A stretch of DNA of 64,000 nt from NCBI GenBank assembly GCA_049323875.1, contig JBMOLW010000041.1, positions 74,476 through 138,475 of the forward strand, given 5' to 3'. The position numbers and the translations under genes were made by a program. Positions within the stretch are counted from its first letter, which is position 1. Each line of letters begins with the position of its first letter. The notes under the pieces were generated by a model. That model was not told where the DNA came from and did not search any database. It saw nothing but the letters and a program-made list of their open reading frames with translations. Below are positions 9,810 to 49,544 of this stretch, in pieces. Source of the stretch: Nitrospirota bacterium. Its GTDB lineage: Bacteria > Nitrospirota > Thermodesulfovibrionia > Thermodesulfovibrionales > SM23-35.

Positions 9810-10658
9810 TCAGGAGCGAAAAACACCTTCGAATACTTCTACTGCCGGTCCGGACATATACACGCGGTTATCATCTGCCCAGTGAATGACGAGATCCCCT
9901 CCAAGCAGATGCACCACAACTTTTCTCCCCGCAAGTCCCTTCAGATGCGCCGCGACTGCAGCAGCAGATGCGCCTGTACCGCATGCCATCGTCTCGCCTG
10001 ATCCGCGTTCCCAGACGCGCATCTTGACCTCTGAAGGACTGATCACCTCGATAAATTCCACATTGGTCCTTTTAGGGAATATCTGATAGTGTTCAATGAT
10101 CGGTCCGAAATACGCCACCGGGAACTCGTCCACCCTTTCAACAAAGATAACCGCATGAGGGTTTCCCATGGACACGCAGGTGATCCTCAATTCTTTATCC
10201 TCTATACGAAGGGGATAGTCGACGATACCACCCGAAGGATGAGGGATGAGGGATGAGGGATGAGGGAGATGAACCGGTATTTTCTCCGGGTCGAAGACCG
10301 GCTCACCCATATCTACCTTTACCATGTCCCCTGACTTTTCCGGCCTGATGATCCCTGCCAATGTTTCTATGTCGAGGATATCTTTCGGGGAGAGGTTCCT
10401 GTCCCATACGTACTTTGCAAGACAGCGGATACCGTTTCCGCACATCTCGACCTCGCTCCCGTCCGCATTGAAGATCCTCATTTTAAAATCGGCGATTGCG
10501 GACTTCTCGAGCAGGAGGATCTGATCGGCACCGACGCCGAATCTCCGGTCGCACAATTGTTGGGCAAGGCTGGCAATATTCTCAAGCCGGGTCTCTCTTG
10601 AATCGATCACGACGAAATCGTTCCCGAGGCCGTGCATCTTGGTAAAGAGCAGGTTCAT
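9810..10658 (-). CDS. dapF: Diaminopimelate epimerase
   Basis: 282 aa with both catalytic Cys motifs (EMCGNG, MACGTG). Carries a repeat-derived insertion HLPHPSSLIPHPSGG. ATGA overlap with lysA. Confidence 0.95.
   Translation of the reverse strand: MNLLFTKMHGLGNDFVVIDSRETRLENIASLAQQLCDRRFGVGADQILLLEKSAIADFKMRIFNADGSEVEMCGNGIRCLAKYVWDRNLSPKDILDIETLAGIIRPEKSGDMVKVDMGEPVFDPEKIPVHLPHPSSLIPHPSGGIVDYPLRIEDKELRITCVSMGNPHAVIFVERVDEFPVAYFGPIIEHYQIFPKRTNVEFIEVISPSEVKMRVWERGSGETMACGTGASAAAVAAHLKGLAGRKVVVHLLGGDLVIHWADDNRVYMSGPAVEVFEGVFRS
10237..10273. repeat. Heptamer tandem array (GGATGAG)x4 plus degenerate tail, inside dapF
   Basis: Four perfect GGATGAG units at 10237-10264, followed by GGAGATGAA. 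Read on the coding strand as PHPSSLIPHPS. Confidence 0.9.
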
Positions 10659-23512: not shown

Positions 23513-25816
23513 TCACCCTTTCCTTCTCAGGATAAATACGATCACAAGGGGAAGCAGGAGCATAAGGGTATCTGCAACTGCTGTCTGGGGCGAAGCAGTC
23601 CTCCCGATGGCACACCCGCCGCCACCGCCTCCGTCTCCGTTATCAGAGGAAGATTTTTCCGTGGTCGCCTGGGTTTCATTCGAATACGCCGAATAGCCGA
23701 ATGTATTTACTGCACGCACCCGATAGAAATATGTTGTGGCCGGATTTAACCCCGAATCATTGTAGCTCGTGGTATTCGATCCGGTCCCTGCTATTTCAGC
23801 ATACATCCCGGCCTCTCCGGTCTTTCTCTCGATCCTGAAACCGGTTTCATTCGATGAAGTATCTGTCCAGGAAAGATCTATCTGGCTTTTTGAAACCGCC
23901 GTTGCCATGAGGTTCGATGGGGCAGAGGGAATCATAGCGTTCAAGGCTTCAAAGGCATTTACCCTTCCCCCGGTCGCCGTAAACCCGGTGAGGGAACCCT
24001 TCTGATCCACACTGTTCAGGATAATATTCCTCACCTCAGCATAGGACAGGGCAGGATTGGCCGAAAAGACCAGCCCGGCAACACCGCTTACATACGGGGC
24101 AGCAAGCGATGTTCCGCTCCACGGCAGTTCTCCGCGATACATTTCATATGAATAACCCCCTACGCTCAGCGGCTGCCTCTGTACAAGAACATCATCAATG
24201 GATACCCCCTCCTGCTGGAAAAACCCGTCTGATTCGAGGCCAAACCCGATATGGAACCGGTCATAGAGATCGGCTGCTTCCGTAATCAGGTCAGTAAAGA
24301 CCGGGACAAAAGCACCTCCGGTATTCCCGTCCGTCCATGCAACGTTCTGCCATGTATTGCCGTCCGGAGAAGAGTTGAACCAGAAATAATCAAATGAGAG
24401 TTGATCGATATGTCCCTTCCAGACACAGGACAGGATATAGAGGTTGTTCTTGACCGATACCAGCGGGGTCAGATATCCTGCCCAGGAATTGGTATTGGGC
24501 AGATAGGTCGCTCCGGGGCTCTCTTCAAGGCTGTTCGTTCCGTTCACCCCGGTTCCCGGGGTTATCTCCCATGATGCGTTTATTCCACCCTGTGACCATC
24601 CGATCAGGGAAAGCGGGCCCGTTGCACTGTCAAAGTTCTCACTATATACCGTAACCGGTGCGCCCGCTGAAATTACCGGGACAGTGCTGTAGATCTCCAC
24701 TCCCGGAGCAGCAAGATCAACAGATGCTGCTCCATAATTCGAGAAATTCGCAAGGGTATCGCTGCTGTCAGAAGCCGCGACTGACAGGATATTATCCAGG
24801 CTGAAGCCGGCAGGGTAGAAGGGAGCCAAATCAGTGTTCAAACTCTCATTGCCCGCAGCAGCAACAAACAGCACCCCTTTCGACCGGGCATAGTTTATGG
24901 CACTATAGAGAGTATTTGAGTAATCATATCCTCCCCAGCTCGCATTGATAACCCGGGCTCCGTTGTCTGCAGCATAGATGATTGCACCGGCTGCATTCGC
25001 TACATCGCCCGACCCGGTCACTCCCAGAAAACGGATCGCCATGATATTTGACGACCACATGACTCCTGACCCGCCCATACTATTGTTTCCGTCTGATGCG
25101 ATAATCCCTGCGACATGGGTCCCATGGGAGTCCAAATCCTCGGGATAGCCGTCATTATCCACAAAATCCCAGCCATACATATCATCGATATATCCATTGC
25201 CGTCGTCGTCTATGCCATTCGCCGAGATCTCTCTTGTATTCCTCCAGATATTGTCCGCAAGGTCCGGGTGGTTGTATGCGACTCCTGTATCAATTACAGC
25301 GATGATACTGTCCTTCGACCCTGTCGTAAAATCCCATGCTTCCGGAGCATCGATATCCGCATCAGGACTCCCGCTGGTCTGTCCGGTATTTGCAAGCCCC
25401 CACTGATAGATAAAGCCCGGGTCATTCGGGATGACCGCCTTCCTCACAAGATAATTCGGCTCTGCATATTCAACATCAGGATTCGATCGATAGGCGTCGA
25501 GTGTTTTCTGAAGGTCCACGGAACCAGGCAACAGGACCCGTTGTACTCCGATATGCTTCAGCTCGCGGACTTTTCCTGCCCCCATAGCCGCATTGAGCGA
25601 AACTCTTCTCAAGTCCGGGGTACCGGGTTTGAATTTGACGAGAACTTCTCCGGGGAGGTTCCGGGACATCGGCACCTTTAAGCCCTCCGAGCCCTTTCCC
25701 TGAGTCTGCAGGGAAACAGGGTCAGGATTCGTTGTGTTTTGCGTGATCCGGAATTGCTCTTCAGCGCCGCACCCGGCAAAGGCCAGCACAACCATAATAC
25801 AGATGAAATATCTCAC
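23513..25816 (-). CDS. S8 (subtilisin-like) serine protease: lipobox, propeptide, FN3, Cys-containing C-terminal tag
   Basis: GTG start 5 nt after AGGAGG and 10 bp after gspN. Lipobox LAFAGC and propeptide ..VLVKFKPG..VEYAEPNY. Catalytic triad AVIDTGV, HGTHVAG, SGTSLAAP. One FN3 domain. Tail GGGGGGCAIGRTASPQTAVADTLMLLLPLVIVFILRRKG. Confidence 0.93.
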   Translation of the reverse strand: MRYFICIMVVLAFAGCGAEEQFRITQNTTNPDPVSLQTQGKGSEGLKVPMSRNLPGEVLVKFKPGTPDLRRVSLNAAMGAGKVRELKHIGVQRVLLPGSVDLQKTLDAYRSNPDVEYAEPNYLVRKAVIPNDPGFIYQWGLANTGQTSGSPDADIDAPEAWDFTTGSKDSIIAVIDTGVAYNHPDLADNIWRNTREISANGIDDDGNGYIDDMYGWDFVDNDGYPEDLDSHGTHVAGIIASDGNNSMGGSGVMWSSNIMAIRFLGVTGSGDVANAAGAIIYAADNGARVINASWGGYDYSNTLYSAINYARSKGVLFVAAAGNESLNTDLAPFYPAGFSLDNILSVAASDSSDTLANFSNYGAASVDLAAPGVEIYSTVPVISAGAPVTVYSENFDSATGPLSLIGWSQGGINASWEITPGTGVNGTNSLEESPGATYLPNTNSWAGYLTPLVSVKNNLYILSCVWKGHIDQLSFDYFWFNSSPDGNTWQNVAWTDGNTGGAFVPVFTDLITEAADLYDRFHIGFGLESDGFFQQEGVSIDDVLVQRQPLSVGGYSYEMYRGELPWSGTSLAAPYVSGVAGLVFSANPALSYAEVRNIILNSVDQKGSLTGFTATGGRVNAFEALNAMIPSAPSNLMATAVSKSQIDLSWTDTSSNETGFRIERKTGEAGMYAEIAGTGSNTTSYNDSGLNPATTYFYRVRAVNTFGYSAYSNETQATTEKSSSDNGDGGGGGGCAIGRTASPQTAVADTLMLLLPLVIVFILRRKG

Positions 25817-28170: not shown

Positions 28171-29057
28171 TAATATTCCTTCCAGTATTCAATGAGATTG
28201 CCGTTGTGATCCCATACCGCTTCAATGATCCGTTTCACTCCTCCTGATGACGCTACCGACTTCACAGAAAATTGGCTGCTTTTCTCCATCAGGGCTATCG
28301 AGGTATCAGGCAATGAACCCGTGAATCTCTGAAAGTCCTCTCCCTTCAGGGGAACCACTTCCCTGTTGCGGACTATCTGCTCCGCTTCCTCTTCCGTAAC
28401 ATCCTCCGCAAGGCATCTCAGCACAGGGGTGCCGGCAGTGTTAATATTTATTTCAAGGTTCAATGCGCTCTTTCCAAAGACAGTAACATATGGCAATAAT
28501 GTATCATACTCTTCTTCCCCGATTCCATGCACCAGGAGAAGTTCGTCGATACTGACGAAATATGCGTTTTCTGCCCCGGTCTCCGAACCCGGCACTCTTG
28601 CCTCGCTGTCCCCGTCTATCCAGTCCGCAATTCTCCCGGCAATACGCTCATCAAGGTTTAAGATGGCCAGCAACCTCACAAATGCATCATAGGTATTCTT
28701 TTGGCCGTTGGGATAGACAAGGGTGTTGATGTTGAATTTGGCGTTTTCGTCCTCGATCCTGACCGTGACCGTCCCCTGGAAATCCTCGAAAGGATTTTCC
28801 ACAGGCATCTCCATAAAATTCTGTGTCGGTATCGCAGTTCCGGAACTCAGCACATTGGCAAGAAACGGCACTGATACGTTGATCCCTGATCTTGCCATGA
28901 GGGAGAGCCGCTGCGCATCCCGCCAGTTATAGAGATTATTCGTTCCCGTATAGACACCATAAGAGAATTCCACGACCATCGCAGTCAGGAGAACAAGGAC
29001 AAGAAGCGTGATAACCAGTGCCATGCCGTGCTGGTTGAAGCACACATTGTGTTTCAT
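28170..29057 (-). CDS. gspK: Type II secretion minor pseudopilin K
   Basis: Prepilin-like MKHNVCFNQHG|MALVITLLVLVLLTAMVVEF with a large GspK-size body. The track ORF extends to 29228, but that extension is a translation of REP copy b. Confidence 0.7.
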   Translation of the reverse strand: MKHNVCFNQHGMALVITLLVLVLLTAMVVEFSYGVYTGTNNLYNWRDAQRLSLMARSGINVSVPFLANVLSSGTAIPTQNFMEMPVENPFEDFQGTVTVRIEDENAKFNINTLVYPNGQKNTYDAFVRLLAILNLDERIAGRIADWIDGDSEARVPGSETGAENAYFVSIDELLLVHGIGEEEYDTLLPYVTVFGKSALNLEININTAGTPVLRCLAEDVTEEEAEQIVRNREVVPLKGEDFQRFTGSLPDTSIALMEKSSQFSVKSVASSGGVKRIIEAVWDHNGNLIEYWKEY

Positions 29058-29107
29058 CGTTTTCCTGGAAATCTCCCTTTCACACTGCATTACTTCTGAA
29101 TAACTGT

Positions 29108-29173
29108 CATTGTCCGGCTTGACCGGACAATCCAGTTTTTTTCTCTGGATTCCCCGATCAAGTCGGGGAATGA
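29108..29173. repeat. Bipartite double-hairpin REP-like element, copy b
   Basis: CATTGTCCGG-CTTGA-CCGGACAATCC, a 17-nt spacer, then GATTCCCCGA-TCAAG-TCGGGGAATGA. Lies between gspJ and gspK. Confidence 0.85.
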
Positions 29174-29224
29174 CTTTATGGACATTTATGCCCAAGTGAA
29201 GAGAGAACAAAGGAATCTTCTCCA

Positions 29225-29875
29225 TCATACCTGATTTCCTATCCTGGGTTTTGCGATATCATTGAGTGTAACCGTATGCCCCTTGATTCTCATGGTCAGG
29301 CCTATCCGTAATTCCCCGGGTTTCGTTTTGTTCACTGCCGCATCCCAGGTCCCCACCCAGGCATCCTGATATTTCGCCTCGATGCTGAACCCTTCAAGAT
29401 CTTCTATGATCTCAACTCCCTCTGTTTCTGCCCTCCCGTATGGTGATTCCATTTTTTTCAGGAGGCTCAGTTTCCCCTCTTTCTCTTCGACATAATACGA
29501 AATCCTTGAAAGCCCGGGGCGCAGAGCGGAGAATGCAGTGAAATCGAGCTGTGTGGTCTGTCTGCCGTAGACATCTCTGTCCTCAATCCGGAATACAGTA
29601 TGGGTTTTCTGTTCGTTCTGATATGCGGCTTCAAGTTCGCATCTAAGGATATCGATAGCTCTCCTTGCCTCCTGAAGTCTGGTCAAAGATTCATCCATTC
29701 CTTCCATTGCCCTGTAGCTCAGGAAAAATGTACTGTAAATCGCAACGAGGATTACGGAGAGGATTGAGACTGCGACAAGCACTTCCAGCAGCGTAAAACC
29801 CATTCGCTGTGACAGGAGAACCCCGGGCCTGTCCTGTCCACCGAAATGGCATAAAGAATCCGTCTTATTGATCAT
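29225..29875 (-). CDS. gspJ: Type II secretion minor pseudopilin J
   Basis: 216 aa with prepilin motif ..QRMG|FTLLEVLVAVSILSV. ATGA overlap with gspI. Confidence 0.7.
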   Translation of the reverse strand: MINKTDSLCHFGGQDRPGVLLSQRMGFTLLEVLVAVSILSVILVAIYSTFFLSYRAMEGMDESLTRLQEARRAIDILRCELEAAYQNEQKTHTVFRIEDRDVYGRQTTQLDFTAFSALRPGLSRISYYVEEKEGKLSLLKKMESPYGRAETEGVEIIEDLEGFSIEAKYQDAWVGTWDAAVNKTKPGELRIGLTMRIKGHTVTLNDIAKPRIGNQV

Positions 29876-30216
29876 TTGACCACAAACTCATTTAACTTCA
29901 CCTCTTCGCCGCCTGCGTTCACCACAACGATAATCTCCGACACCCCGGTATACGGGGAGGCCTTTACAAAAGTCTCATAGGAGTAATGTTCATACGGGGC
30001 ATCGAACTGCGCCTTGCCGGCAACAGGATCCTGTTCGAGATCCGCCATTTTGCTCCTTGCAAGCAGGGTTGCGACCGTTATAGTCTCCTGCCTCTCAATC
30101 AGCCCCAGTTGGTAATTAACGGTATAGATGAGGGTTACAAGCAGGCTGCCGACTATTGCCAGCGCAATCAGCACCTCAAGAAGCGTGAAACCCCTTTTTC
30201 CTCCTTCCTCCTTCAT
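29872..30216 (-). CDS. gspI: Type II secretion minor pseudopilin I
   Basis: 114 aa starting MKEEGGKRG|FTLLEVLIALAIVG. The start codon and SD lie inside the heptamer array. Confidence 0.75.
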   Translation of the reverse strand: MKEEGGKRGFTLLEVLIALAIVGSLLVTLIYTVNYQLGLIERQETITVATLLARSKMADLEQDPVAGKAQFDAPYEHYSYETFVKASPYTGVSEIIVVVNAGGEEVKLNEFVVK

Positions 30217-30272
30217 CCTTCCTCCTTCATCCTTCCTCCTTCATCCTTCATCCCTCATCCTTCATCCCTCGT
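30203..30272. repeat. Heptamer tandem array (CCTTCAT/CCTTCCT)x10 at the gspH-gspI junction
   Basis: Ten contiguous 7-nt units. The coding strand reads ATGAAGG/AGGAAGG. The array contains the gspH TGA stop (30255-30257) and the gspI ATG (30214-30216). Confidence 0.92.
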
Positions 30273-30725
30273 CTCTATCTTCACCCTGCCGCTCAGGTGG
30301 TTCAGCCTGACTGTCATCTGGCTTTCCCCCCTCGTCAGGTAGATAAAGAGGTCCTCCCGGGCGCCGAGAGGCTCAAACAGAAGAGTCAGTTCACCGCTCG
30401 ATACAAGCCCCCTGGATGGTATTTCGACTCCGGTGAGGTCATGAAAAAGCCGGGATTTCTTCCCTGCAGGCTCACTCCATGCCACCAGATTCTTCGTGAG
30501 ATCAAAGGTGAGGGAGAACGTCTCTTTTCTCGACACCGCATTGTCATTTACATATCTCAGGATTGAAGCCATCTCGCGTGCTTCAGCCCTCAGCCTGCTC
30601 TCTCCGAATCCGGTGAATGCAGGTAATATCACTGCCAGGACGACGGACAGGACAAAGAGCACTATGATCAGCTCGATGAGAGAAAAACCGGGGCTATTGC
30701 ATATCCCAGTTCTGGATATCCGCAT
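30255..30725 (-). CDS. gspH: Type II secretion minor pseudopilin H
   Basis: Prepilin motif MRISRTGICNSPG|FSLIELIIVLFVL. The ATG at 30725 has a purine-rich upstream region and is preferred over the track start 30761, which has no SD. Confidence 0.7.
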   Translation of the reverse strand: MRISRTGICNSPGFSLIELIIVLFVLSVVLAVILPAFTGFGESRLRAEAREMASILRYVNDNAVSRKETFSLTFDLTKNLVAWSEPAGKKSRLFHDLTGVEIPSRGLVSSGELTLLFEPLGAREDLFIYLTRGESQMTVRLNHLSGRVKIETRDEG

Positions 30726-31125
30726 CTTTCCCTTCCCCGCCCTCTTTTCCGTCTGCTCCATAGCTCAGGATATCAAAGTCGCCGTAGATACCGGGAGAGA
30801 TGTAGATATAGGGATTATTCCAGGGATCAAGCGGGATTTTTCTCTGTTCGAGATAGCCGCCTTCACGGTATTTCTCAGGTATCTGCCCGACAGCGGGCTT
30901 CTCGATGAGTGATTCAAGTCCCTGTTCAGTGCCCGGGTAAAACCCGTTGTCGAGCTTGAAGAGCTTCAGGGCAGTCTCAAAATTCTTTATCTGTACCTTT
31001 GCCTCTGCAATCCGTGCGTCGTCGGTCCGCCCGATGATCTTCGGCGCAACAATGGCAACGAGGAGACTGAGTATGAAAACCACGACAATAATTTCGAGCA
31101 GGGTAAATCCTTTCTTGTTTTTCAT
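30694..31125 (-). CDS. gspG: Type II secretion major pseudopilin G
   Basis: 143 aa starting MKNKKG|FTLLEIIVVVFILSLL. GspG core ..AKVQIKNFETALKLFKLDNGFYP..DPWNNPY. SD GGAGG. Confidence 0.93.
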   Translation of the reverse strand: MKNKKGFTLLEIIVVVFILSLLVAIVAPKIIGRTDDARIAEAKVQIKNFETALKLFKLDNGFYPGTEQGLESLIEKPAVGQIPEKYREGGYLEQRKIPLDPWNNPYIYISPGIYGDFDILSYGADGKEGGEGKDADIQNWDMQ

Positions 31126-31183
31126 GATTCCTCCGTTCTGGGTTCTCTATTACTAAGACGGCTATAACCAAGGAGACATCTGA

Positions 31184-31249
31184 CATTGCCCGACTTGATC
31201 GGGTAATCCAGAGGAAGGCAAAAGATTCCCCGGTCAAGCCGGAGAATGA
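31184..31249. repeat. Bipartite double-hairpin REP-like element, copy c
   Basis: CATTGCCCGA-CTTGA-TCGGGTAATCC, a 14-nt spacer, then GATTCCCCGG-TCAAG-CCGGAGAATGA. Lies between gspF and gspG. Confidence 0.85.
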
Positions 31250-31274
31250 CGAACAGACAAGCTTCTGTCGCCAT

Positions 31275-31400
31275 ACTAATGACCGCATTAGTAACTGTCC
31301 GGTATAGTCCTTGAGCGGCTTTATCTCCCGAATGCGTTCGGGAGATACCTCGGAGGGCGATAGCCCGAGAATGAGCGAAAGTACTATACCGGACAGTTAT
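31275..31400. other. Highly structured element (three-way-junction-like) between gspF and gspG
   Basis: Perfect 15-bp closing stem ACTGTCCGGTATAGT (31294-31308) / ACTATACCGGACAGT (31383-31397). It encloses hairpins ATCTCCCGAA-TGCG-TTCGGGAGAT and CTC..GGGC-GATA-GCCC-GAG. An adjacent hairpin ACTAATG-ACCG-CATTAGT sits alongside. Confidence 0.45.
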
Positions 31401-31408
31401 TCGTATGC

Positions 31409-32584
31409 TCATTTGATCAACTGGTTCAACTGGAATATCGGAAGCAGGACCGCAAGCACGATGAGTCCAACCAGAAATCCCATGCAGAGAATCATCGCCG
31501 GTTCAAGCAGCGAAAGGGCTTTGTCAACCCTGCGGGAGAACTCCTCCTCGTAAGAATGTGCGGCATTTCTGAGAACCTCTGCCAACTGTCCGCTCCTTTC
31601 TCCGGTTGAAATCAGCTGGAGGAGTACCGGGGGAAAACCATCGAGCGATGCAGAAAGCCGGGCACCCTCTGACACCCGCTTTCCGGCATCCAGAACGTTC
31701 ATCTCAATCACTTTGTTCCCGATCGATCTTGCGGAAAGCTCAAGGGCATTCAGCATGGGAAGCCCCCCCTCAAGAAGGAATGACAAGATCCGGGCGAAAC
31801 GCCCGAAATAGAGGCTCTGGAGAATATTGCCCGGGATACGCAATACCACCCTGTCGACAAAGGCACGTTTCTTCTCCCTGAGGTCCCTGAGGAAATAGAG
31901 ACCACTGAGAAGCAAGCCCATAAGGACCCACCAGGAGCGCTGAAAAACATCACTCACCCAGATGAGTATCACGGTAAGCAAGGGGAGCGCGCTCTGGGTG
32001 TCCTGGTATATTCTGGTGATTTTCGGCATCACAAAGGCGAAGAGAAAAGAAAGCACGATAAAGCTTATGCAGATCATAAAAACAGGGTAGATCATCGATG
32101 TCCTAACTTTGGATTTCAGGCTGTCCTGGGACTCGAGAAAATCGGCGATACGGATGAGGATAGTATCGAGATTTCCGCTCGCCTCACCTGCAGCGATCAT
32201 ATTGATATAGAATTCAGGAAAAATTTTTGGATATTCCTCCAACGCTTTCGAGAAATTTGACCCTGCGGCAATTCGTTCCCGTATGTCCACCAGCATGGTT
32301 TTCCAGAAACCTTTCTGCTCGTCTGAGAGTGACCTGAGCGCTTCAAGGAGGGGTACGCCGGAGGAGAGAAGGGTTGATAATTGCCGCGTTACGGAGGGCA
32401 GAAGGGCTGAGTCGTTTCTGCTGAACAGGGAAAACCGTCTTGTTCCCGAAACCCCTTCCACGTTTCTCGGATAGAGCCCTGACTCTTTGAGCCTGAGCAC
32501 TGCGTCCTTCCTGCTTGCTGCCTCGATCGTTCCCGTTGCCTCGGAACCGTCAGCCCTGTATCCCTTATAGTGAAATATCGGCAT
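31409..32584 (-). CDS. gspF: Type II secretion system inner-membrane platform protein F
   Basis: 391 aa with two GspF/PilC-type repeats and three TM segments. Confidence 0.92.
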   Translation of the reverse strand: MPIFHYKGYRADGSEATGTIEAASRKDAVLRLKESGLYPRNVEGVSGTRRFSLFSRNDSALLPSVTRQLSTLLSSGVPLLEALRSLSDEQKGFWKTMLVDIRERIAAGSNFSKALEEYPKIFPEFYINMIAAGEASGNLDTILIRIADFLESQDSLKSKVRTSMIYPVFMICISFIVLSFLFAFVMPKITRIYQDTQSALPLLTVILIWVSDVFQRSWWVLMGLLLSGLYFLRDLREKKRAFVDRVVLRIPGNILQSLYFGRFARILSFLLEGGLPMLNALELSARSIGNKVIEMNVLDAGKRVSEGARLSASLDGFPPVLLQLISTGERSGQLAEVLRNAAHSYEEEFSRRVDKALSLLEPAMILCMGFLVGLIVLAVLLPIFQLNQLIK

Positions 32585-34085
32585 AATCTTTCTGGGTTAC
32601 CCGCAGGACTTCTTCAAGGGTTGTAATCCCCTGTATCACCTTCTCAAGTCCGTCCTGGCGGAGCGTTTTCATACCCTGCGAAACTGCCTGGCTCTTGATC
32701 CTCTGGGAGTCCATCCGGTCGGTGATCATGGGACGTATCTCGCTGCTGATCTCGAGCAGTTCGAAAATGCCCAGCCTCCCGAGATATCCCTTTCCCTTGC
32801 AGGTATCACATCCCTGCCCCCTGAAAAGAGCCCGGGGAGGTTCCGGGAAATATGAGCGCTCACTCTCCGACGGGGCATAGGCTATCTTGCACCGGGGGCA
32901 GATCGTACGCACCAGCCTCTGCGCAAGCACAAGGGCAAGTGACGAAGCAACGAGGAAGGGCTCGATACCCATGTCTATGAGCCTCACCAGTGCGCTCGGT
33001 GCATCGTTTGTATGAAGGGTGCTGAGAACAAGATGACCGGTAAGCGATGCCTGCATGGCTATTTCAGCCGTTTCGAGGTCTCTTATCTCTCCGACCATGA
33101 TCACGTCAGGGTCCTGCCTCAGAATAGACCTCAGCCCCGAGGCAAAGGTAAGTCTTATTTTAGGGTTCACCTGAACCTGTCCGATGCCTTTCAGCTGATA
33201 TTCGATCGGGTCCTCAACCGTGATAATATTTTTTTCTTCCGTATGAATCCTGTTGAGCGCAGCGTAGAGGGTCGTCGTCTTCCCGCTCCCGGTGGGACCC
33301 GTAACCAGGATGATACCATCCGGCCTTTTCAGATGCTCCTCCATCTTTTTTTCGTCATCCCTGCTGAACCCGACCTCCCAGAGCCCCAGCAGACCCTGTT
33401 TCCTGTCAAGGAGCCTCAGCACTGCCCTCTCGCCATGAGATGCAGGGATGACCGATACCCTGATATCGATATCCCTTCCACCGAGAAGAAGGCGTATCCT
33501 CCCGTCCTGCGGAAGCCTCTTTTCAGCAATGTCGAGGTTCGCCATGATCTTGATCCTGCTGATTAATGCATCCTGGATAATTTTCGGCGGGGTCAGCACC
33601 CTGTGGAGCACCCCGTCTATTCTCAGTCTCACATCGAGCTCTTTCTCATACGGCTCGATGTGGATATCACTTGCACGCTCTTTTACCGCCTGGAGCAGAA
33701 GTGCGTTGAGGAGCCGGATTATGGGGGCCTCTTCGGTCAGTTCGAGCAGGTCTTTCGGTGCTTCGAATTCAGTCGCAACAGAAGAGAGGTCTTCTCCGGC
33801 AATGGTATCCATAACCTCCTCTGCCGAACCCATCTGCCCGTAGAACCTGTTGATCGCATCGAGGATGACCCCTGCACTTGCCCTGACGGGTTTGGGCTTC
33901 AATCCCAGCGTCTTCGCGACTTCAGAAAGCGCAAGCACTCCCCTGTCGTCGGCAACGGCACAGAGGAGATCCGCGTTATCCTGCCTGATAGGGAAGATCT
34001 GGTTGTTCTTTACAAAGGCGAGGGGGATATTCCTGAGAAGAACGGCTTCAACATCCTCATCTCTTATGGCATCAATTTTTTCCAT
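32565..34085 (-). CDS. gspE: Type II secretion system ATPase E
   Basis: 506 aa with Walker A GPTGSGKTT, Asp/His boxes, and the zinc motif CPRC..CDTC. Confidence 0.95.
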   Translation of the reverse strand: MEKIDAIRDEDVEAVLLRNIPLAFVKNNQIFPIRQDNADLLCAVADDRGVLALSEVAKTLGLKPKPVRASAGVILDAINRFYGQMGSAEEVMDTIAGEDLSSVATEFEAPKDLLELTEEAPIIRLLNALLLQAVKERASDIHIEPYEKELDVRLRIDGVLHRVLTPPKIIQDALISRIKIMANLDIAEKRLPQDGRIRLLLGGRDIDIRVSVIPASHGERAVLRLLDRKQGLLGLWEVGFSRDDEKKMEEHLKRPDGIILVTGPTGSGKTTTLYAALNRIHTEEKNIITVEDPIEYQLKGIGQVQVNPKIRLTFASGLRSILRQDPDVIMVGEIRDLETAEIAMQASLTGHLVLSTLHTNDAPSALVRLIDMGIEPFLVASSLALVLAQRLVRTICPRCKIAYAPSESERSYFPEPPRALFRGQGCDTCKGKGYLGRLGIFELLEISSEIRPMITDRMDSQRIKSQAVSQGMKTLRQDGLEKVIQGITTLEEVLRVTQKDYADISL

Positions 34086-34092
34086 CCGATAG

Positions 34093-36369
34093 TCATTGTA
34101 TCTTCATGATATAGTTGGGCTCTGCATATTCCACCTCTTTATAGCTCATAAAAATCCTGACCGCGTCCTTCACATCCCGGCCCTCCTTCACCAGTATCCG
34201 GTAGAGTCCTTTCGGCTTCAAAGGAGACTCGACAGCAGCATCCTCCCGGGAGAGTATCTCAGCGATCCTCTCCTCTGAAGTCCCCTCTCTGAATTTTACG
34301 AGCAACTCGCCCTCTTTATATCTTTCCTCCATCCTTGCAAATTGCAACTGTTTTTCACCGGTCAACTTATCGAGCTGCTCAGGTTCTCTCACAATATGGG
34401 GAGTCAGGAATATGAGCAGGTTAGTCTTCTTTTTCTCCACAGATTTGTTCTTGAACAGCCAGCCCAGCAGGGGGATATCGCCGAGGAGCGGCATCTTGTT
34501 CACAGTCTCTTCCTCCCGCTCTTCCATGAGTCCCCCGATTACCACGGTCTGGTTATCCTTGACAACAACAGAGGTTTTTGTCGAGCGTTTCGTTGTTGTA
34601 GGCCCCACAGTGAGCACCACGGTGGTTGATTCCTGCTTCAGGGCTGATATCTCTTCATAGATGTCGAGTTTCACATGGTTCCCTTCCGTAATCTGCGGGG
34701 TGATTCTCAGCGTAATCCCGACGTCTTTCCTCTCGATCGAGGTGAAGACTGATTGAGGCCGTGCAGGATCGGATTCTTTCTGTGCGATGAACGGCACATT
34801 CTCTCCCACGATGATTTCTGCTTCCTTGTTGTCAGAGGTCAGGATCTGCGGGGTGGAAAGGACGTTCACTGCGTCCTTGAACTCGTTCAGGCTGAAAAGC
34901 GCTGCAAACCCGGGCACAGTCAGAGTTGAAGTCACAGCAGTTCCGTCCGTGCCGATCGTCGTAATCGGGACATCGAGAAAATTCCCCATACCGCCGGCTG
35001 TCATTCCGGTGAGTCCGTAGAGAATTCCCTGCATGGAGGTGGCATCGATCTGACCGAAACCTCCGACCGCAACCGGCTCTCCGTCCTTTTCAGCGATGAT
35101 CCGCCACTTGGAGCCGAGTTCCTGCAACCTGTCTATCGAGGCTTCAACGATCATCGCCTCTACGTATACCTGCCTTCTCTTCCTGTCAAGCTGTTTGATG
35201 ACCTGGACAAGGTTCTGGTAATCTGAAGGAGAGGCTACAATAACAAGAGAATTGGTCGCCTTGTCCGGTGAGATAATAACCCTGCCTCCCGGCTCGAAGG
35301 GGCTCTTCTGTTGCTGGCTCTGCTGACCTGTCTGTCCTGTCCTTGCCTGTGCTGATATCCCCGTTATCATGGAATCAAGCACCTTGGAGAGTTCAGTTGC
35401 GTCCGCATATTCAAGGAAATAGACGTTGATCTTGCTTATTGCATCAGGAAGCGGGATATCGAGGAGAGAAACAATCCGCTTCATGGCCTCTTTTTCCTGC
35501 TTGTCTGCAATCATGATAACGGCATTCAGCCTCGTGTCTGCAAAAACCGTTGATTTGGATTCCTCAACAGACGCCGCCGGCACGGTTTCGCCCGGCCTCA
35601 GCGCCCTCATTGCAGCGGGTTGCCCCTTGCTGCTCAGGACCAGTGTCTCGGTCAGGATCTTCACCACATCTTCCGCATTTGCATATTTCAGGAGAACAAG
35701 CTCAGGCTCCTCTATGCCCGGCTTGTCTATGGTTTCAAGGATCTCGAGCATTCGCTGGACATTCGTTGCAGAGTCGACCACCATGAGCATATTCCCCGGG
35801 CCGAAGGATGAGATATGCCCGTCCCGCGAGACAAGGGGCTGGAGGAAATTCATCGCCTTTGCAGAAGAGATCGCGCTCAGTTGTATCAGTCTTGTGATGT
35901 ACGCATCGCTCACCGGCACACCCTCGTCCGTCTGGAGTTCGGTTCCTGTCTGCCTTGCCTGGGTGGTCGGCACGATCTTATATACTTTTCCGGACGGTAT
36001 AATGGTAAACCCCTTCAGTTCCAGTACTGAAGTGAAAAGGTGGAATGCATCATCCACCGAAAGCCTGGATGGCGCGATGATGGTTATCGTACCCTTCACT
36101 TTCTCATCGAAGACGAAGTTCTTGCCTGTTACTTCGCTGATGAACTTCACCACGACCGGGATATCCACGTCTACAAAGTTGAAGGCTACTTTCTTCTCCT
36201 TACCCTGGCTTTCTTGTTTTTCGGTCGGGGAGGTTTCTCCATACAGGGATGAAATAGGAAGGATGAAGGATGAAATGAGAAACAGGAGAAGGATGAAGGA
36301 TGAAGGATGAAGGATGAAACGTGAACTAACAGAAGAACGAAGGTTGAAGGATGAAAATTTATTCCTCAT
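34093..36369 (-). CDS. gspD: Type II secretion system secretin D with C-terminal S8-propeptide-like domain
   Basis: 758 aa with a repeat-encoded signal peptide, N0-N3 domains and a secretin core (VVIGGLMEE..PLLGDIPLLGWLF). The last 75 aa (YKEGELLVKFREG..VEYAEPNYIMKIQ) resemble the neighbouring protease propeptides. Confidence 0.93.
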   Translation of the reverse strand: MRNKFSSFNLRSSVSSRFILHPSSFILLLFLISSFILPISSLYGETSPTEKQESQGKEKKVAFNFVDVDIPVVVKFISEVTGKNFVFDEKVKGTITIIAPSRLSVDDAFHLFTSVLELKGFTIIPSGKVYKIVPTTQARQTGTELQTDEGVPVSDAYITRLIQLSAISSAKAMNFLQPLVSRDGHISSFGPGNMLMVVDSATNVQRMLEILETIDKPGIEEPELVLLKYANAEDVVKILTETLVLSSKGQPAAMRALRPGETVPAASVEESKSTVFADTRLNAVIMIADKQEKEAMKRIVSLLDIPLPDAISKINVYFLEYADATELSKVLDSMITGISAQARTGQTGQQSQQQKSPFEPGGRVIISPDKATNSLVIVASPSDYQNLVQVIKQLDRKRRQVYVEAMIVEASIDRLQELGSKWRIIAEKDGEPVAVGGFGQIDATSMQGILYGLTGMTAGGMGNFLDVPITTIGTDGTAVTSTLTVPGFAALFSLNEFKDAVNVLSTPQILTSDNKEAEIIVGENVPFIAQKESDPARPQSVFTSIERKDVGITLRITPQITEGNHVKLDIYEEISALKQESTTVVLTVGPTTTKRSTKTSVVVKDNQTVVIGGLMEEREEETVNKMPLLGDIPLLGWLFKNKSVEKKKTNLLIFLTPHIVREPEQLDKLTGEKQLQFARMEERYKEGELLVKFREGTSEERIAEILSREDAAVESPLKPKGLYRILVKEGRDVKDAVRIFMSYKEVEYAEPNYIMKIQ
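36247..36355. repeat. GGATGAA heptamer arrays within the 5' end of gspD
   Basis: GGATGAA units at 36247, 36261, 36268, 36291-36318 (4 perfect) and 36349. The coding strand reads TTCATCC, giving SRFILHPSSFILLLFLISSFILPISS. Confidence 0.9.
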
Positions 36370-36371
36370 CT

Positions 36372-36734
36372 CTATTTCCTCCTAACCTTTTTCACGATGG
36401 ATGTAAAAATTGCTATCAATTCATTGGCCTCTGAGAGTAAGGTTTTCAGTTCTGCACTGCTATTTATTTTAGCATCAAACAATAGTTCAAGCCAGTATAT
36501 CGTTTCATCCAGCTCCTGAACAACGATTCCGATTTTGGAAACAAATTCAGAATCAGAGCGGGCACGACACGCTTCGCGGTAATTCGCACGAGCCGATGTT
36601 CCGGAACGCAATACTTGTTTGCCGATTATTTGAGCTTCATGAGATTTGGAAGGAAGTAAAGAATAGAAATGGACTATCTTTATCGCGTATTTTTTTGTCC
36701 TGTCCCTCAAATTCTCTGTGATTCTATTTTCCAT
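36372..36734 (-). CDS. Four-helix-bundle protein (23S rRNA intervening-sequence protein family)
   Basis: 120 aa with family pattern ..QVLRSGTSARANYREACRARSDSEFVSKIGIVVQELDETIYWLELL. Lower GC than its neighbours. Alternative start at 36773 inside the heptamer array. The stop lies 2 nt before the gspD ATG. Confidence 0.8.
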   Translation of the reverse strand: MENRITENLRDRTKKYAIKIVHFYSLLPSKSHEAQIIGKQVLRSGTSARANYREACRARSDSEFVSKIGIVVQELDETIYWLELLFDAKINSSAELKTLLSEANELIAIFTSIVKKVRRK

Positions 36735-36761
36735 TTTCCTCCCTGTTTTTTCTGTCTTTAC

Positions 36762-36792
36762 TTCCTCCTTCATCCCTCACCATTCATCCTTA
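36762..36792. repeat. Short heptamer array (TTCCTCC/TTCATCC) between gspC and the four-helix-bundle gene
   Basis: TTCCTCC TTCATCC CTCACCA TTCATCC, in inverted orientation relative to the 36247-36355 arrays. Confidence 0.8.
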
Positions 36793-36796
36793 TCTT

Positions 36797-49383: not shown

Positions 49384-49451
49384 TCTTCTCTCCTTTTTCG
49401 ATTGTCACTTTTCATTCTTTAACTCTTGACTGTTCACTGTTAACTCTGTAA

Positions 49452-49544
49452 TGGCGGAGAGGCAGGGATTCGAACCCTGGGTGGGGTTTTACCCCCACAA
49501 CCGCTTAGCAGGCGGCTGCCTTCGACCGGCTCGGCCACCTCTCC
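49452..49544 (-). tRNA. tRNA-Ser (anticodon GCU)
   Basis: Reverse complement gives GGAGAGG..anticodon loop CTGCTAA, a long variable arm, TTCGAATCC, CCTCTCC-G-CCA. Confidence 0.93.

What the first reader, a model, noticed from the sequence alone, without database searches (positions are those of the whole stretch)
30203..30272. Heptamer tandem array provides the stop codon of gspH and the SD and start codon of gspI
Ten contiguous 7-nt units read ATGAAGG/AGGAAGG/ATGAGGG on the coding strand. Each ATGA-type unit contains an ATG and an overlapping TGA. Junctions between units create GGAGG. With a 7-nt period, ATG and TGA appear in all three frames every three units. In the actual sequence gspH terminates at a repeat TGA (30255-30257). 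gspI initiates at a repeat ATG (30216), 4 nt after a repeat-made GGAGG. The array therefore behaves as a frame-independent translational-coupling linker. It is also an obvious substrate for slipped-strand changes that would alter gspH C-terminal and gspI N-terminal residues or coupling efficiency. The same ATGAAGGAGGAAG start context recurs upstream of the four-helix-bundle gene (36773).
Basis: partly seen in the sequence, partly recalled or inferred. Interest (0 to 1): 0.65.

Follow-up and report, generated by a model that had tools for sequence, protein, structure and literature searches.

The report
Variable heptamer array joining two genes
A run of ten 7-base repeats really does supply the stop codon of one secretion gene and the ribosome site and start codon of the next, but it is one copy of a widespread repeat family whose inverted copies bracket a small four-helix-bundle gene in many bacterial phyla.

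Summary
On the minus strand, 30267..30198 holds ten 7-nt units (GGATGAA/GGATGAG/GGAGGAA). The gspH-like ORF stops at a repeat TGA (30257-30255). The gspI-like ORF starts at a repeat ATG (30216), 4 nt after a repeat-made GGAGG.

The array is neither unique to this junction nor purpose-built. The same heptamer occurs at three other places in the window. (GGATGAR)4 occurs in more than 120 stretches of genomes from many phyla, usually as mirror-image inverted pairs around a variable spacer.

In the window, inverted arrays bracket a PF05635/TIGR02436 four-helix-bundle (4HB) gene between gspC and gspD. At all 14 independent 4HB loci examined the gene has period-7 tandem arrays beside it, on both sides in at least 12. 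The unit sequence differs between lineages. Published tables place a 4-unit array over the start of Xanthomonas XCC0516, also a 4HB gene.

Unit number varies between strains: a 99.6%-identical relative has 4 degenerate units, and more distant relatives have about 2. One relative carries a paired-arm insertion at this junction that leaves gspI without a canonical start.

Translational coupling through a chain of ATGA-linked 5-codon mini-ORFs can be read from the sequence but is untested.

The parts
30198..30267 (-). Tandem array of ten heptamers (GGATGAA x5, GGATGAG x1, GGAGGAA x4). Units 4-9 have a 14-nt sub-period, (GGATGAA GGAGGAA) x3. The first four units have the same A/G pattern ('AGAA') as the arms in L003, L054 and L059.
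30255..30725 (-). gspH-like minor pseudopilin, 156 aa from the second Met (as called for P0001; the mechanical ORF runs up to 30761). The last codons, GAT GAA GGA TGA, are repeat sequence.
   Evidence: best NCBIfam hit is TIGR01708 GspH at 37 bits, below the cut-off of 80
30255..30257 (-). TGA stop codon of gspH, in unit 2, overlapping ATG 30258 as ATGA
30241..30258 (-). Mini-ORF 1: ATG AGG GAT GAA GGA TGA (MRDEG*). Its ATG overlaps the gspH stop, and its TGA overlaps the next ATG.
   Evidence: my reading of the sequence
30227..30244 (-). Mini-ORF 2: ATG AAG GAG GAA GGA TGA (MKEEG*)
   Evidence: my reading of the sequence
30213..30230 (-). Mini-ORF 3: ATG AAG GAG GAA GGA TGA (MKEEG*). Its TGA (30215-30213) overlaps the gspI ATG at 30216.
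   Evidence: my reading of the sequence
30221..30225 (-). GGAGG Shine-Dalgarno-like motif made by the junction of units 6 and 7, 4 nt upstream of the gspI ATG
29872..30216 (-). gspI-like minor pseudopilin, 114 aa. The start codon and the first seven or so codons of the cleavable leader (MKEEGGKRG|FTLLE) are repeat sequence.
   Evidence: best NCBIfam hit is TIGR01707 GspI at 35.9 bits, below the cut-off of 44.35
36372..36773 (-). Four-helix-bundle gene (PF05635 23S_rRNA_IVP; TIGR02436) inserted between gspC and gspD. Its ATG lies inside a heptamer arm.
36761..36789 (-). 5' arm of the 4HB cassette: GGATGAA TGGTGAG GGATGAA GGAGGAA G. It lies between the gspC stop (36799-36797) and the 4HB coding sequence.
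36247..36355 (-). 3' arm(s) of the 4HB cassette. On the minus strand these are (TTCATCC)n blocks, inverted relative to the 5' arm, and they are translated as the N-terminal signal-peptide region of GspD.
10237..10267 (+). (GGATGAG)x4.4 array lying antisense inside dapF (9810..10658 -). It encodes about 7 extra residues (VHLPHPS region).

Best explanation
**What it is.** The array is a sense-oriented, unpaired ('solo') copy of this lineage's dispersed heptamer-array element, (GGATGAR)n. The same family forms the inverted arms around the PF05635/TIGR02436 four-helix-bundle (4HB) gene 6.5 kb upstream in the same gene cluster. It also forms ORF-less hairpin pairs in many phyla.

**How it got there (inferred).** It sits in what is, in relatives, a 4-11-nt overlap between gspH and gspI with the sequence ...GGATGAAGGATAAGG.... 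It has grown by slippage in 7- and 14-nt steps and is unstable between strains.

**Why it is tolerated (shown from sequence).** The sense strand of this heptamer carries a TGA, an SD-like purine run and an ATG in every ATGA-type unit. gspH therefore simply ends at the first in-frame TGA, with new C-terminal residues ...RDEG. gspI takes its SD, its ATG and most of its short leader peptide from the repeat. That leader is expected to be removed by prepilin peptidase, so its sequence should matter little (established knowledge of prepilin processing; not tested here).

**How translation reaches gspI (inferred).** Either ribosomes initiate de novo on the unstructured purine-rich leader at GGAGG-N4-ATG, or termination-reinitiation passes down a chain of three ATGA-linked 5-codon mini-ORFs. 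Every 14-nt duplication of the unit automatically preserves that chain. Any regulatory role of unit number is not shown.
For: **Array, stop, SD and start:**. Chance expectation.

**Same heptamer elsewhere in the window:** 10237-10267, 36247-36355 and 36761-36789.

**Family across phyla:** It also occurs in 91 stretches of viral contigs.

**Typical form is an inverted pair:** arm-spacer-inverted arm, with the A/G unit variants mirrored between the two arms. There are 62 pairs in '+ then -' order within 1.2 kb against 5 in '- then +' order.

**Link to 4HB genes:**
- Inverted heptamer arrays flank the 4HB genes of the window/L216, L218, L219, L011, L222 and L224. Their flanking inverted-repeat scores are 18-32, against a mean of 7.3 and a maximum of 11 for 42 control ORFs.
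- Seven further 4HB genes, fetched without reference to repeats, also have period-7 arrays beside them (both sides in six of them), with other unit sequences.
- In Xanthomonas campestris a 4-unit GGGAATC-type array overlaps the start codon of XCC0516 (PMC4692102, S2 Table A row 15). XCC0516 is PDB 2GSC, a PF05635 representative (PMC2238938 and PMC10053308).

**Instability between relatives:** the window has 10 units. L001 has 4 at 99.57% identity. L002 and L004 have about 2. L003 has a paired-arm insertion at the same junction whose left arm has the same unit pattern as the window's first units.

**Other points:**
- The array is predicted unpaired in the mRNA, z = -0.12.
- The other junctions of the operon are 1-32-nt overlaps.
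- Arrays that supply both the stop and the start of real neighbouring genes occur elsewhere: L101 dapF and the next gene, and L088.
Against: - The ancestral junction (L002, L004) already resembles two units. Purely local slippage, with no 'element', could therefore have produced the array.
- No mobility mechanism, target-site duplication or transposase was found near arrays.
- The window array is solo. Only L003 has a paired form at this site, and L003 is a fragmented, probably error-prone assembly.
- The ten-unit count is not confirmed by a second full-length assembly, because L221 breaks inside the array.
- There is no evidence that the relay or the unit number affects expression. Relay-compatible spacing is not enriched at other junction arrays: 11 of the 20 other arrays listed are compatible (12 of 21 counting the window's own), some of which are spurious ORFs in GC-rich DNA.
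Confidence: 0.7

Rival explanations
1. A purely local simple-sequence repeat. The native gspH/gspI overlap (GGATGAAGGATAAGG) seeded replication slippage, with no connection to the dispersed heptamer family or to the 4HB cassette.
For: - L002 and L004 (79-82% identical GspH) have a two-unit proto-repeat at exactly this junction.
- Heptanucleotide SSRs are the most over-represented long SSR class in bacteria, and this has been attributed to polymerase slippage (Mrazek 2007, as summarised in PMC4679880).
- The 14-nt sub-period of units 4-9 looks like slippage.
Against: - The same heptamer occurs at three other loci within 64 kb, two of them antisense within coding sequence where no SD/ATG seed exists.
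- The first 28 nt have the same four-unit A/G pattern as arms in other phyla, and as the left arm of the paired insertion in L003 at the same junction.
- The window, L001 and L003 share the downstream ...GGAA(A/G)AGGGG boundary that L002 and L004 lack.
Confidence: 0.15
2. A selected translational device. The array is maintained because it couples gspI translation to gspH through the ATGA relay and repeated SDs, or because unit number tunes the gspH:gspI ratio as a contingency-type rheostat.
For: - There is an unbroken chain: gspH TGA/ATG, then MRDEG*, MKEEG* and MKEEG*, then the gspI ATG.
- Units 2, 4, 6 and 8 keep ATGA, while units 5 and 7 are GGAGGAA (SD, with no ATG or TGA).
- The window and L001 differ by 42 nt, which is three relay steps.
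- The other junctions of the operon overlap, which suggests coupling is the norm.
- The array is unstructured in the mRNA.
- Heptanucleotide SSRs do tune expression in H. influenzae hmw1A (PMC8262952).
Against: - The relay is an automatic consequence of the GGATGAA unit and of 14-nt duplication, so it needs no selection.
- Relay-compatible spacing is not enriched among the 20 other junction arrays listed (about half), and the verified L088 junction is incompatible.
- Changes in unit number cannot switch either ORF off.
- Only two alleles are known, and there are no expression data.
Confidence: 0.2
3. An assembly artefact, in which a repeat has been collapsed or inflated by the assembler.
For: Short-read contigs break at these arrays. 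L221 ends inside this array. Its contig, and L001, start at the gspD-proximal array.
Against: - At 70 nt the array is shorter than ordinary reads.
- An independent run (L221) reproduces the flank and the first 3.9 units exactly.
- Related arrays are present in hundreds of independent assemblies, including isolate genomes such as Herpetosiphon and Chthoniobacter flavus.
Confidence: 0.03

Closest known systems
Heptameric G-rich arrays of Xanthomonas (GGGAATC)n and Nostoc (GGGGAYT)n (Rehm et al. 2015, PMC4692102)
   Same: - The unit is 7 nt and the commonest length is four units (28 nt).
- Many copies are convergent inverted pairs 20-70 nt apart.
- They lie mostly in intergenic spacers between co-oriented genes of operons (groES|groEL, atpA|atpG, xpsE|xpsF).
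- Length and sequence vary between close relatives.
- One copy overlaps the start codon of the 4HB gene XCC0516.
   Different: - The unit sequence differs. GGATGAR has no G3-4 tracts, so the G-quadruplex reading proposed there cannot be the common denominator.
- The sense strand here carries ATG, TGA and an SD, so it can replace a gene junction.
- The link to 4HB genes was not drawn in that paper.
TAACTGA direct repeats of marine Beggiatoaceae, Cyanobacteria and Bacteroidetes (MacGregor 2015, PMC4679880)
   Same: - Heptamer direct repeats lie within a few nt upstream of start codons.
- There are stops in all frames in the forward orientation, and the reverse orientation is open.
- The phylogenetic distribution is scattered.
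- A role in translation has been suggested.
   Different: - TAACTGA has no ATG and no SD.
- It occurs almost only as direct repeats; one indirect repeat was reported.
- No associated gene family was reported.
Cyanobacterial STRR heptanucleotide repeats (Calothrix/Anabaena; cited in PMC4692102; otherwise my own knowledge)
   Same: Dispersed tandem heptanucleotide arrays, mostly intergenic, of unknown function.
   Different: The units differ (for example CCCCAGT). No stop/SD/start content or 4HB link has been described, as far as I know.
REPIN-RAYT systems (Bertels and Rainey 2011, PMC3116915; listed; otherwise my own knowledge)
   Same: - There are hundreds of short inverted-repeat doublets in intergenic DNA.
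- There are one or a few protein genes that are themselves flanked by the same repeats in inverted orientation. That flanking is the argument that linked RAYTs to REPs.
   Different: - The arms here are tandem heptamers rather than imperfect palindromes.
- The flanked gene encodes a small helical-bundle protein with no known nuclease or transposase fold.
- No mobility has been shown.
23S rRNA intervening sequences carrying a PF05635 ORF (Leptospira, Coxiella and others; my own knowledge; family description in PMC10053308 and bioRxiv 10.1101/2024.02.27.582315)
   Same: A PF05635 ORF is bounded by inverted repeats that can form a long RNA stem. The window cassette folds that way, z = -4.47.
   Different: The element here lies in an mRNA operon spacer, not in rRNA. 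RNase III excision has not been tested. A heptamer substructure of IVS stems has not been described, as far as I know.
ATGA stop/start overlaps and termination-reinitiation coupling in operons (established knowledge)
   Same: The gspH TGA overlaps an ATG. The neighbouring junctions gspI/J and gspJ/K are 4-nt overlaps (coordinates), and L001 has a direct ATGA overlap at gspH/gspI itself.
   Different: Three 5-codon mini-ORFs are interposed here. A multi-step relay of this kind is, to my knowledge, not a described mechanism, and it is untested.
Phase-variable heptanucleotide SSR at H. influenzae hmw1A/hmw2A (PMC8262952, PMC12721329)
   Same: A heptanucleotide SSR upstream of a surface or secretion-related gene whose unit number varies between strains.
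   Different: That SSR lies in the promoter/5'-UTR and grades transcription. This one lies between two ORFs, and no effect on expression is known.

Membership tests
Long simple-sequence repeat (heptanucleotide SSR) | Head-to-tail copies of a short unit, longer than chance allows | tested here: met
   10 units, TRF score 105. Shuffles give 0.26 runs of at least 2 units per window.
Long simple-sequence repeat (heptanucleotide SSR) | Copy number differs between closely related genomes | tested here: met
   10 units in the window, 4 in L001 (99.57% identity), about 2 in L002 and L004.
Phase-variable contingency locus | A change in unit number switches a gene on or off by frameshift or promoter spacing | tested here: not met
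   The array lies between the gspH stop and the gspI start. Adding or removing whole units frameshifts neither ORF (sequence logic). No promoter was predicted at the array.
Phase-variable contingency locus | Heterogeneity of unit number within a population | not testable with these tools
   No reads are available. Two sibling runs (SRR32167786 and SRR32167788) carry different alleles.
Dispersed heptamer-array / inverted-pair elements (Xanthomonas GGGAATC type) | The same 7-nt unit in many dispersed arrays, commonest length four units | tested here: met
   Four loci in the window. At least 120 genome stretches. Four-unit patterns dominate, but the search pattern required at least 4 units, so the mode is biased.
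Dispersed heptamer-array / inverted-pair elements (Xanthomonas GGGAATC type) | Convergent inverted pairs with a short spacer | tested here: inconclusive
   Met for the family: 62 pairs in '+ then -' order against 5 in the opposite order, with mirrored unit variants. This array itself is solo. A paired form occupies the same junction in L003.
Dispersed heptamer-array / inverted-pair elements (Xanthomonas GGGAATC type) | Location in spacers between co-oriented genes | tested here: met
   gspH|gspI, gspC|4HB|gspD, nuoK flanks in L029, L101 and L088.
MITE / transposon | Terminal inverted repeats | tested here: met
   For paired copies the arms are mirror images. In one genome the inverted repeat extends beyond the heptamers (the two L075 copies).
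MITE / transposon | Target-site duplication and a cognate transposase | tested here: not met
   No direct duplications were seen at the ends of the pairs (by eye). No transposase or other family is enriched within 1.5 kb of arrays.
PF05635/TIGR02436 four-helix-bundle gene cassette (IVS-like) | An ORF belonging to PF05635/TIGR02436 | tested here: met
   The ORF 36372..36773 scores PF05635 at 6.8e-16 and TIGR02436 at 84.8 bits against a cut-off of 24. The gspH-gspI array itself contains no such ORF.
PF05635/TIGR02436 four-helix-bundle gene cassette (IVS-like) | The ORF is bounded by inverted repeats able to form a stem | tested here: met
   14 independent loci have period-7 arrays beside the gene. 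In most the two sides are inverted copies of each other; L230 and L231 score like controls and L219 has a tandem array on one side only. The fold of the window cassette pairs the arms, z = -4.47.
PF05635/TIGR02436 four-helix-bundle gene cassette (IVS-like) | Excision of the element from the transcript by RNase III | not testable with these tools
   Needs RNA end mapping.
Translational coupling by stop/start overlap | The stop of the upstream ORF overlaps or abuts the start of the downstream ORF | tested here: inconclusive
   Direct overlap in L001 (4 nt) and in L002 and L004 (11 nt). In the window the link is indirect, through three ATGA-linked mini-ORFs.
Translational coupling by stop/start overlap | Downstream translation depends on upstream translation | not testable with these tools
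   Needs reporter or ribosome-profiling experiments.
Type II secretion minor pseudopilins GspH / GspI (the gene labels used in the finding) | Prepilin leader with G|FTLLE motif, match to the GspH/GspI models, position in a gspG-H-I-J-K cluster | tested here: inconclusive
   N_methyl motif present. The best NCBIfam hits are GspH and GspI, but both are below the trusted cut-offs. The gene order C-(4HB)-D-E-F-G-H-I-J-K-L fits.

The most novel reading that the evidence does not exclude
Tandem heptamer arrays and PF05635/TIGR02436 four-helix-bundle genes form a widespread two-part system that I could not find described, analogous to REPINs and their RAYT.

- Each lineage has its own heptamer: GGATGAR here, GGGAATC in Xanthomonas, and others seen beside 4HB genes such as TAATTCG, GACAATT and GAGTAAT.
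- The 4HB gene sits between inverted arrays of that heptamer.
- ORF-less inverted pairs and solo arrays are dispersed through operon spacers.
- The pentameric 4HB protein would recognise or propagate the arrays at the DNA or RNA level.

This would explain the long-noted excess of heptanucleotide repeats in bacteria. It would also give a function to the stand-alone '23S rRNA IVS protein' family. The gspH-gspI array would then be a solo arm co-opted as stop, SD, start and leader peptide.
Probability: 0.3. Interest if true: 0.85.

Novelty: new variant of a known kind. Interest (0 to 1): 0.6.

Why it matters
**At this locus.** Mobile or slippage-prone repeat DNA can replace a gene junction without breaking either gene. 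It rewrites the C-terminus of one pseudopilin and the leader peptide of the next, and the result differs between strains that are 99.6% identical. Anyone annotating start codons, or comparing strains of this lineage, needs to know that.

**More widely.** The array led to a regularity that I could not find in the literature. At every locus examined the PF05635/TIGR02436 four-helix-bundle gene has period-7 tandem arrays beside it, usually as inverted copies on both sides. The units are lineage-specific, and this includes the structurally solved XCC0516 of Xanthomonas.

Two old puzzles thereby become linked and testable. One is why heptanucleotide repeats are over-represented in bacteria. The other is what the stand-alone relatives of the DGR protein Avd do. 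Tests would include binding assays, RNase III mapping and genome-wide matching of units.

Tried and rejected
- **Exact-protein look-ups.** Look-ups of the mechanical gspH and gspI ORFs found nothing. For gspH the database entry (P0001) starts at the second Met. The homology search and a look-up of the conserved GspG worked instead.
- **Metagenome scan for GspH relatives.** It returned only one locus, L004, so the sample of orthologous junctions is small: window, L221, L001, L002, L003 and L004, plus gene coordinates only for the P0003 contig.
- **Hypothesis that a transposase or other gene family travels with the arrays.** All-against-all BLASTP of ORFs within 1.5 kb of arrays in 120 loci showed only generic families. 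Rejected.
- **Hypothesis that most (GGATGAR)4 arrays sit next to a 4HB gene.** phmmer and an HMM of close homologues found only L011 among the pattern-selected loci. Most arrays are therefore ORF-less. The association holds in the other direction, from 4HB gene to arrays.
- **Hypothesis that relay-compatible spacing (stop to start = -1 + 14k) is selected.** Not enriched: 12 of 21. Several of those 21 are spurious ORFs in GC-rich DNA.
- **Known RNA families.** None was found in 29000-37500. No convincing promoter or terminator lies at the array.
- **PDB check of XCC0516.** Neither the single protein nor a profile retrieved 2GSC; only 2RLD was hit. The identity XCC0516 = 2GSC = PF05635 therefore rests on papers.
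- **Literature.** Searches for the repeat sequence itself, and for any link between four-helix-bundle proteins and heptamer repeats, found nothing relevant.
- **First flank-repeat control.** At a low TRF threshold the control was noisy: 8 of 45 control ORFs had a period-7k hit. It was replaced by a whole-locus TRF at score 40 or above.
Full report
**1. The observation**

On the minus strand, 30267..30198 reads GGATGAA GGATGAG GGATGAA GGATGAA GGAGGAA GGATGAA GGAGGAA GGATGAA GGAGGAA GGAGGAA. TRF reports period 7, 10.0 copies and score 105.

The upstream ORF is a 156-aa gspH-like pseudopilin when counted from the Met used for the 99%-identical P0001. It ends ...AGG GAT GAA GGA TGA, with the TGA at 30257-30255. 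The downstream ORF is a 114-aa gspI-like pseudopilin. It begins at ATG 30216 and reads MKEEGGKRG|FTLLEV.

The gspI frame opens only after TGA 30243-30241. It contains no other ATG, GTG or TTG before the G|FTLLE cleavage motif, so 30216 is the only canonical start. GGAGG lies at 30225-30221, 4 nt upstream.

Shuffled windows contain on average 0.26 runs of at least two such units. The window has seven, one of them ten units long.

An independent assembly, L221 (run SRR32167786), is 100% identical to the window over 5885 nt. It reads 3.9 units into the array before its contig stops. Only the exact count of ten rests on one assembly.

**2.

Every ATGA-type unit opens a 5-codon ORF whose TGA overlaps the ATG two units downstream. 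In the window this gives an unbroken chain:
- the gspH TGA (30257-30255) overlaps ATG 30258;
- MRDEG* ends at TGA 30243-30241, which overlaps ATG 30244;
- MKEEG* ends at TGA 30229-30227, which overlaps ATG 30230;
- MKEEG* ends at TGA 30215-30213, which overlaps ATG 30216 of gspI.

Units 2, 4, 6 and 8 keep ATGA. Units 5 and 7 are GGAGGAA, which is SD-like and has no ATG or TGA. Units 4-9 form three copies of a 14-nt unit.

The local mRNA fold leaves the array unpaired, z = -0.12. The neighbouring junctions for which both gene starts are secure overlap or abut: about 32 nt for gspG/H, 4 nt for gspI/J, 4 nt for gspJ/K, 1 nt for gspK/L.

This relay is my reading of the sequence. It follows automatically from the unit GGATGAA and from 14-nt duplication.

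**3.

- L001 (run SRR32167788) is 99.57% identical over 6 kb. It has four degenerate units (GGATAAA GGATGAA GTATGAA GTAGGAA), a direct ATGA overlap and the leader MKYEVGKRG. It differs from the window by 42 nt, that is six units or three relay steps, plus three substitutions within 70 nt. Elsewhere the difference is 0.4%.
- L002 and L004 (GspH 79% and 82% identical) have only ...G(G/A)ATGAAGGATAAGGG.... The overlap is 11 nt and the leader is MKDKG.
- The P0003 contig has a 4-nt overlap, judged from gene coordinates.
- L003 (82%) carries GGATGAA GGATGAG GGATGAA GGAG, then 107 nt, then TTCATCC TTCATCC CTCATCC TTCATCC. That is a paired, mirror-image insertion at the same junction. The 35 open codons upstream of GFTLLE then hold no ATG, GTG or TTG. 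L003 comes from a contig with many fragmented genes, so it should be read with care.

Unit number is therefore not invariant. The sense-only form keeps gspI's start, and the hairpin form apparently does not.

**4. The array is one copy of a family**

TRF and a mismatch-tolerant scan found the same heptamer at three other places in the window:
- 10237-10267, (GGATGAG)4.4;
- 36247-36355, several GGATGAA blocks;
- 36761-36789, on the minus strand.

The first lies antisense inside dapF and adds about seven residues, judged against another DapF.

The last two bracket, in inverted orientation, a 133-aa ORF between gspC and gspD. That ORF is a PF05635 '23S rRNA intervening sequence protein' and a TIGR02436 'four helix bundle protein'. 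Its ATG (36773) lies in the 5' arm. The 3' arm is translated as the signal-peptide region of GspD. The RNA of the cassette folds with the arms paired, z = -4.47.

**5. Distribution outside the window**

The phyla include Cyanobacteria, Acidobacteriota, Planctomycetota, Chloroflexota, Armatimonadota, Verrucomicrobiota and Proteobacteria. It also occurs in 91 stretches of viral contigs.

The typical form is arm, spacer, inverted arm, with the A/G variants of the units mirrored between the arms. There are 62 pairs in '+ then -' order within 1.2 kb against 5 in the opposite order. Spacers are mostly 6-50 nt, with a second group at 340-450 nt. The spacers are unrelated between genomes. Within a genome they can share sub-terminal sequence (L075, L054).

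No gene family is enriched near the arrays. Arrays frequently end contigs, as they do in L221 and L001.

Elsewhere too, arrays supply the stop of one real gene and the start of the next. Examples are dapF and its neighbour in L101, and two adjacent genes in L088. Relay-compatible spacing is not enriched, at 12 of 21.

**6. The four-helix-bundle link**

Starting from the 4HB protein rather than from the repeat, homologues were fetched with their flanks.
- The gene at the same gspC|gspD site in L216/L217 lies between (GGATGAA)3 and (TTCATCC-type) arrays.
- Genes at unrelated sites are bracketed likewise: L218; L219, between gcvH and gcvP; L222; L224; and L011, which was found through the pattern scan. 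Their units are GGATGAA/GGTTGAA, GGCTGAA/GGATGAA, GAATTAT, GGATGAA/GGCGGAA and GGATGAG/GGATTAG.
- Flanking inverted-repeat scores are 18-32, against a mean of 7.3 and a maximum of 11 for 42 control ORFs.

A second sample of 4HB genes was chosen only by protein similarity: seven distinct loci in viral contigs, 35-43% identical. It shows the same architecture with entirely different heptamers, including GCGGATT, TAATTCG, GACAATT, GAGTTAG and GAGTAAT.

Whole-locus TRF places period-7 arrays (or periods 14, 21, 28) within 0-81 nt of the gene in 13 of 13 loci, and on both sides in at least 11. Only four other period-7 arrays occur in about 65 kb.

Published data agree. In X. campestris a 4-unit GGGAATC-type array lies 6 nt after bccP and overlaps the start codon of XCC0516 by 17 nt (PMC4692102, S2 Table A row 15). 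XCC0516 is the four-helix-bundle pentamer 2GSC, which is cited as a PF05635 representative.

I found no paper linking the two. The library is limited to open-access texts.

**7. What it most likely is and does**

Shown:
- The array is real and varies between strains.
- It is made of the same unit as the arms of the 4HB cassette in the same gene cluster.
- It provides gspH's stop, and gspI's SD, start and leader codons.

Inferred:
- It derives from, or was homogenised with, the dispersed family. The alternative is that it arose only from the two-unit native junction.
- It grew by 7- and 14-nt slippage.
- It persists in the sense orientation because that orientation re-creates a functional junction. 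The prepilin leader is normally cleaved off, so its sequence should be free to vary.

Open:
- Whether gspI is translated by de novo initiation at GGAGG-N4-ATG or by the ATGA relay.
- Whether unit number tunes expression.

I put 0.7 on the 'solo member of the dispersed family, tolerated and slippage-prone' reading. I put 0.15 on a purely local SSR, 0.2 on a selected coupling or tuning device (which is not exclusive of the first), and 0.03 on an artefact.

**8. Comparison with what is known**

The closest described systems are the (GGGAATC)n arrays of Xanthomonas and the (GGGGAYT)n arrays of Nostoc. They share the four-unit mode, the convergent pairs, the operon spacers and the variation between relatives. 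Also close are the TAACTGA repeats just upstream of start codons in Beggiatoaceae. The cyanobacterial STRRs and the four-heptamer elements of Geobacter metallireducens belong to the same broad kind.

New here:
- the unit GGATGAR and its cross-phylum spread;
- its ability to stand in for a gene junction;
- the strain-level 10-versus-4 polymorphism;
- the consistent bracketing of 4HB genes.

The last point resembles the way RAYT genes are flanked by REPs. It differs in arm structure and in the absence of any known catalytic fold.

**9. Verdict**

As a junction repeat alone, the finding is a modest curiosity. Its value is that it exposes an apparently general, lineage-specific association between heptamer arrays and four-helix-bundle genes.

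I rate it a new variant of a known kind, with interest 0.6. The most novel reading not excluded is a REPIN/RAYT-like two-part system, with probability 0.3 and interest 0.85 if true.

Noticed in passing
window 36247-36369 (minus strand): The 3' heptamer arm of the four-helix-bundle cassette is translated as the N-terminus and signal peptide of the secretin GspD (MRNKFSSFNLRSSVSSRFILHPSSFILLLFLISSFILPISSLYG...). L216 shows the same arrangement. L002 has an ordinary signal peptide without heptamers.
   Followed up: partly
window 10237-10267, inside dapF 9810..10658 (-): A (GGATGAG)x4.4 array lies antisense within diaminopimelate epimerase. It reads ...HLPHPSSLIPHPS... and gives a net 7-residue insertion relative to another DapF.
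   Followed up: partly
window 49419-49445: A different heptamer array, TTAACTG-like x3.9 at 80% matches, lies 6 nt from tRNA-Ser(GCT) at 49452-49544 (-). The unit resembles, but is not, the TAACTGA repeat of Beggiatoaceae.
   Followed up: partly
window 21867-21899: Another period-7 array, GCTCTTT x4.7 at 96% matches. Its context was not examined.
   Followed up: no
window 31126-31408; also about 29100-29228; L002 1-70; L003 about 8585-8612 and about 2230-2270: A palindromic element of the type GTCATTC(C)CCG...CGGGGAAT recurs in spacers of the T2SS cluster and in relatives. When read through it encodes peptides like 'VIPRLDRGI'. One copy sits inside the L003 insert between the heptamer arms.
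   Followed up: no
window 34093-36369, 23513-25816, 37913-40015: The GspD secretin carries a C-terminal Fervidolysin_NPro-like domain (PF22148). The same prodomain heads two S8 subtilases that flank the T2SS cluster, which suggests a link between the secretin and its likely cargo. L002, L003 and L216 show the same.
   Followed up: no
L003 8485-8652: In this relative the paired-arm heptamer insertion leaves the gspI frame with no ATG, GTG or TTG upstream of GFTLLE. Several other T2SS genes on that contig are fragmented, either by decay or by long-read errors.
   Followed up: partly
L219 3566-5787; L224 2249-3871; Xanthomonas XCC0517/XCC0516 (literature): Four-helix-bundle genes sit inside conserved operons: between gcvH and gcvP in L219, and after bccP in Xanthomonas. 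In L224 one lies just upstream of an RNase H gene.
   Followed up: partly
L029 80-800: In a Hydrogenedentes MAG, a small membrane-protein ORF that looks like nuoK (my reading of the translation; not run against a family library) is flanked on both sides by (GGATGAA)4-spacer-(TTCATCC)4 hairpins. L071 has arrays beside homologues of the same two adjacent ORFs.
   Followed up: no
L042 5727-6167; L222 2912-3012: Very long arrays exist: 63 GGATGAR units in a Planctomycetia MAG, and 14 GAATTAT units directly upstream of a 4HB gene.
   Followed up: no
L221 and L001 contig ends (window 36317 and 30241): Short-read contigs from two sibling runs begin and end exactly at heptamer arrays. These repeats therefore fragment assemblies of this lineage, and arrays may be under-represented in MAGs.
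   Followed up: partly
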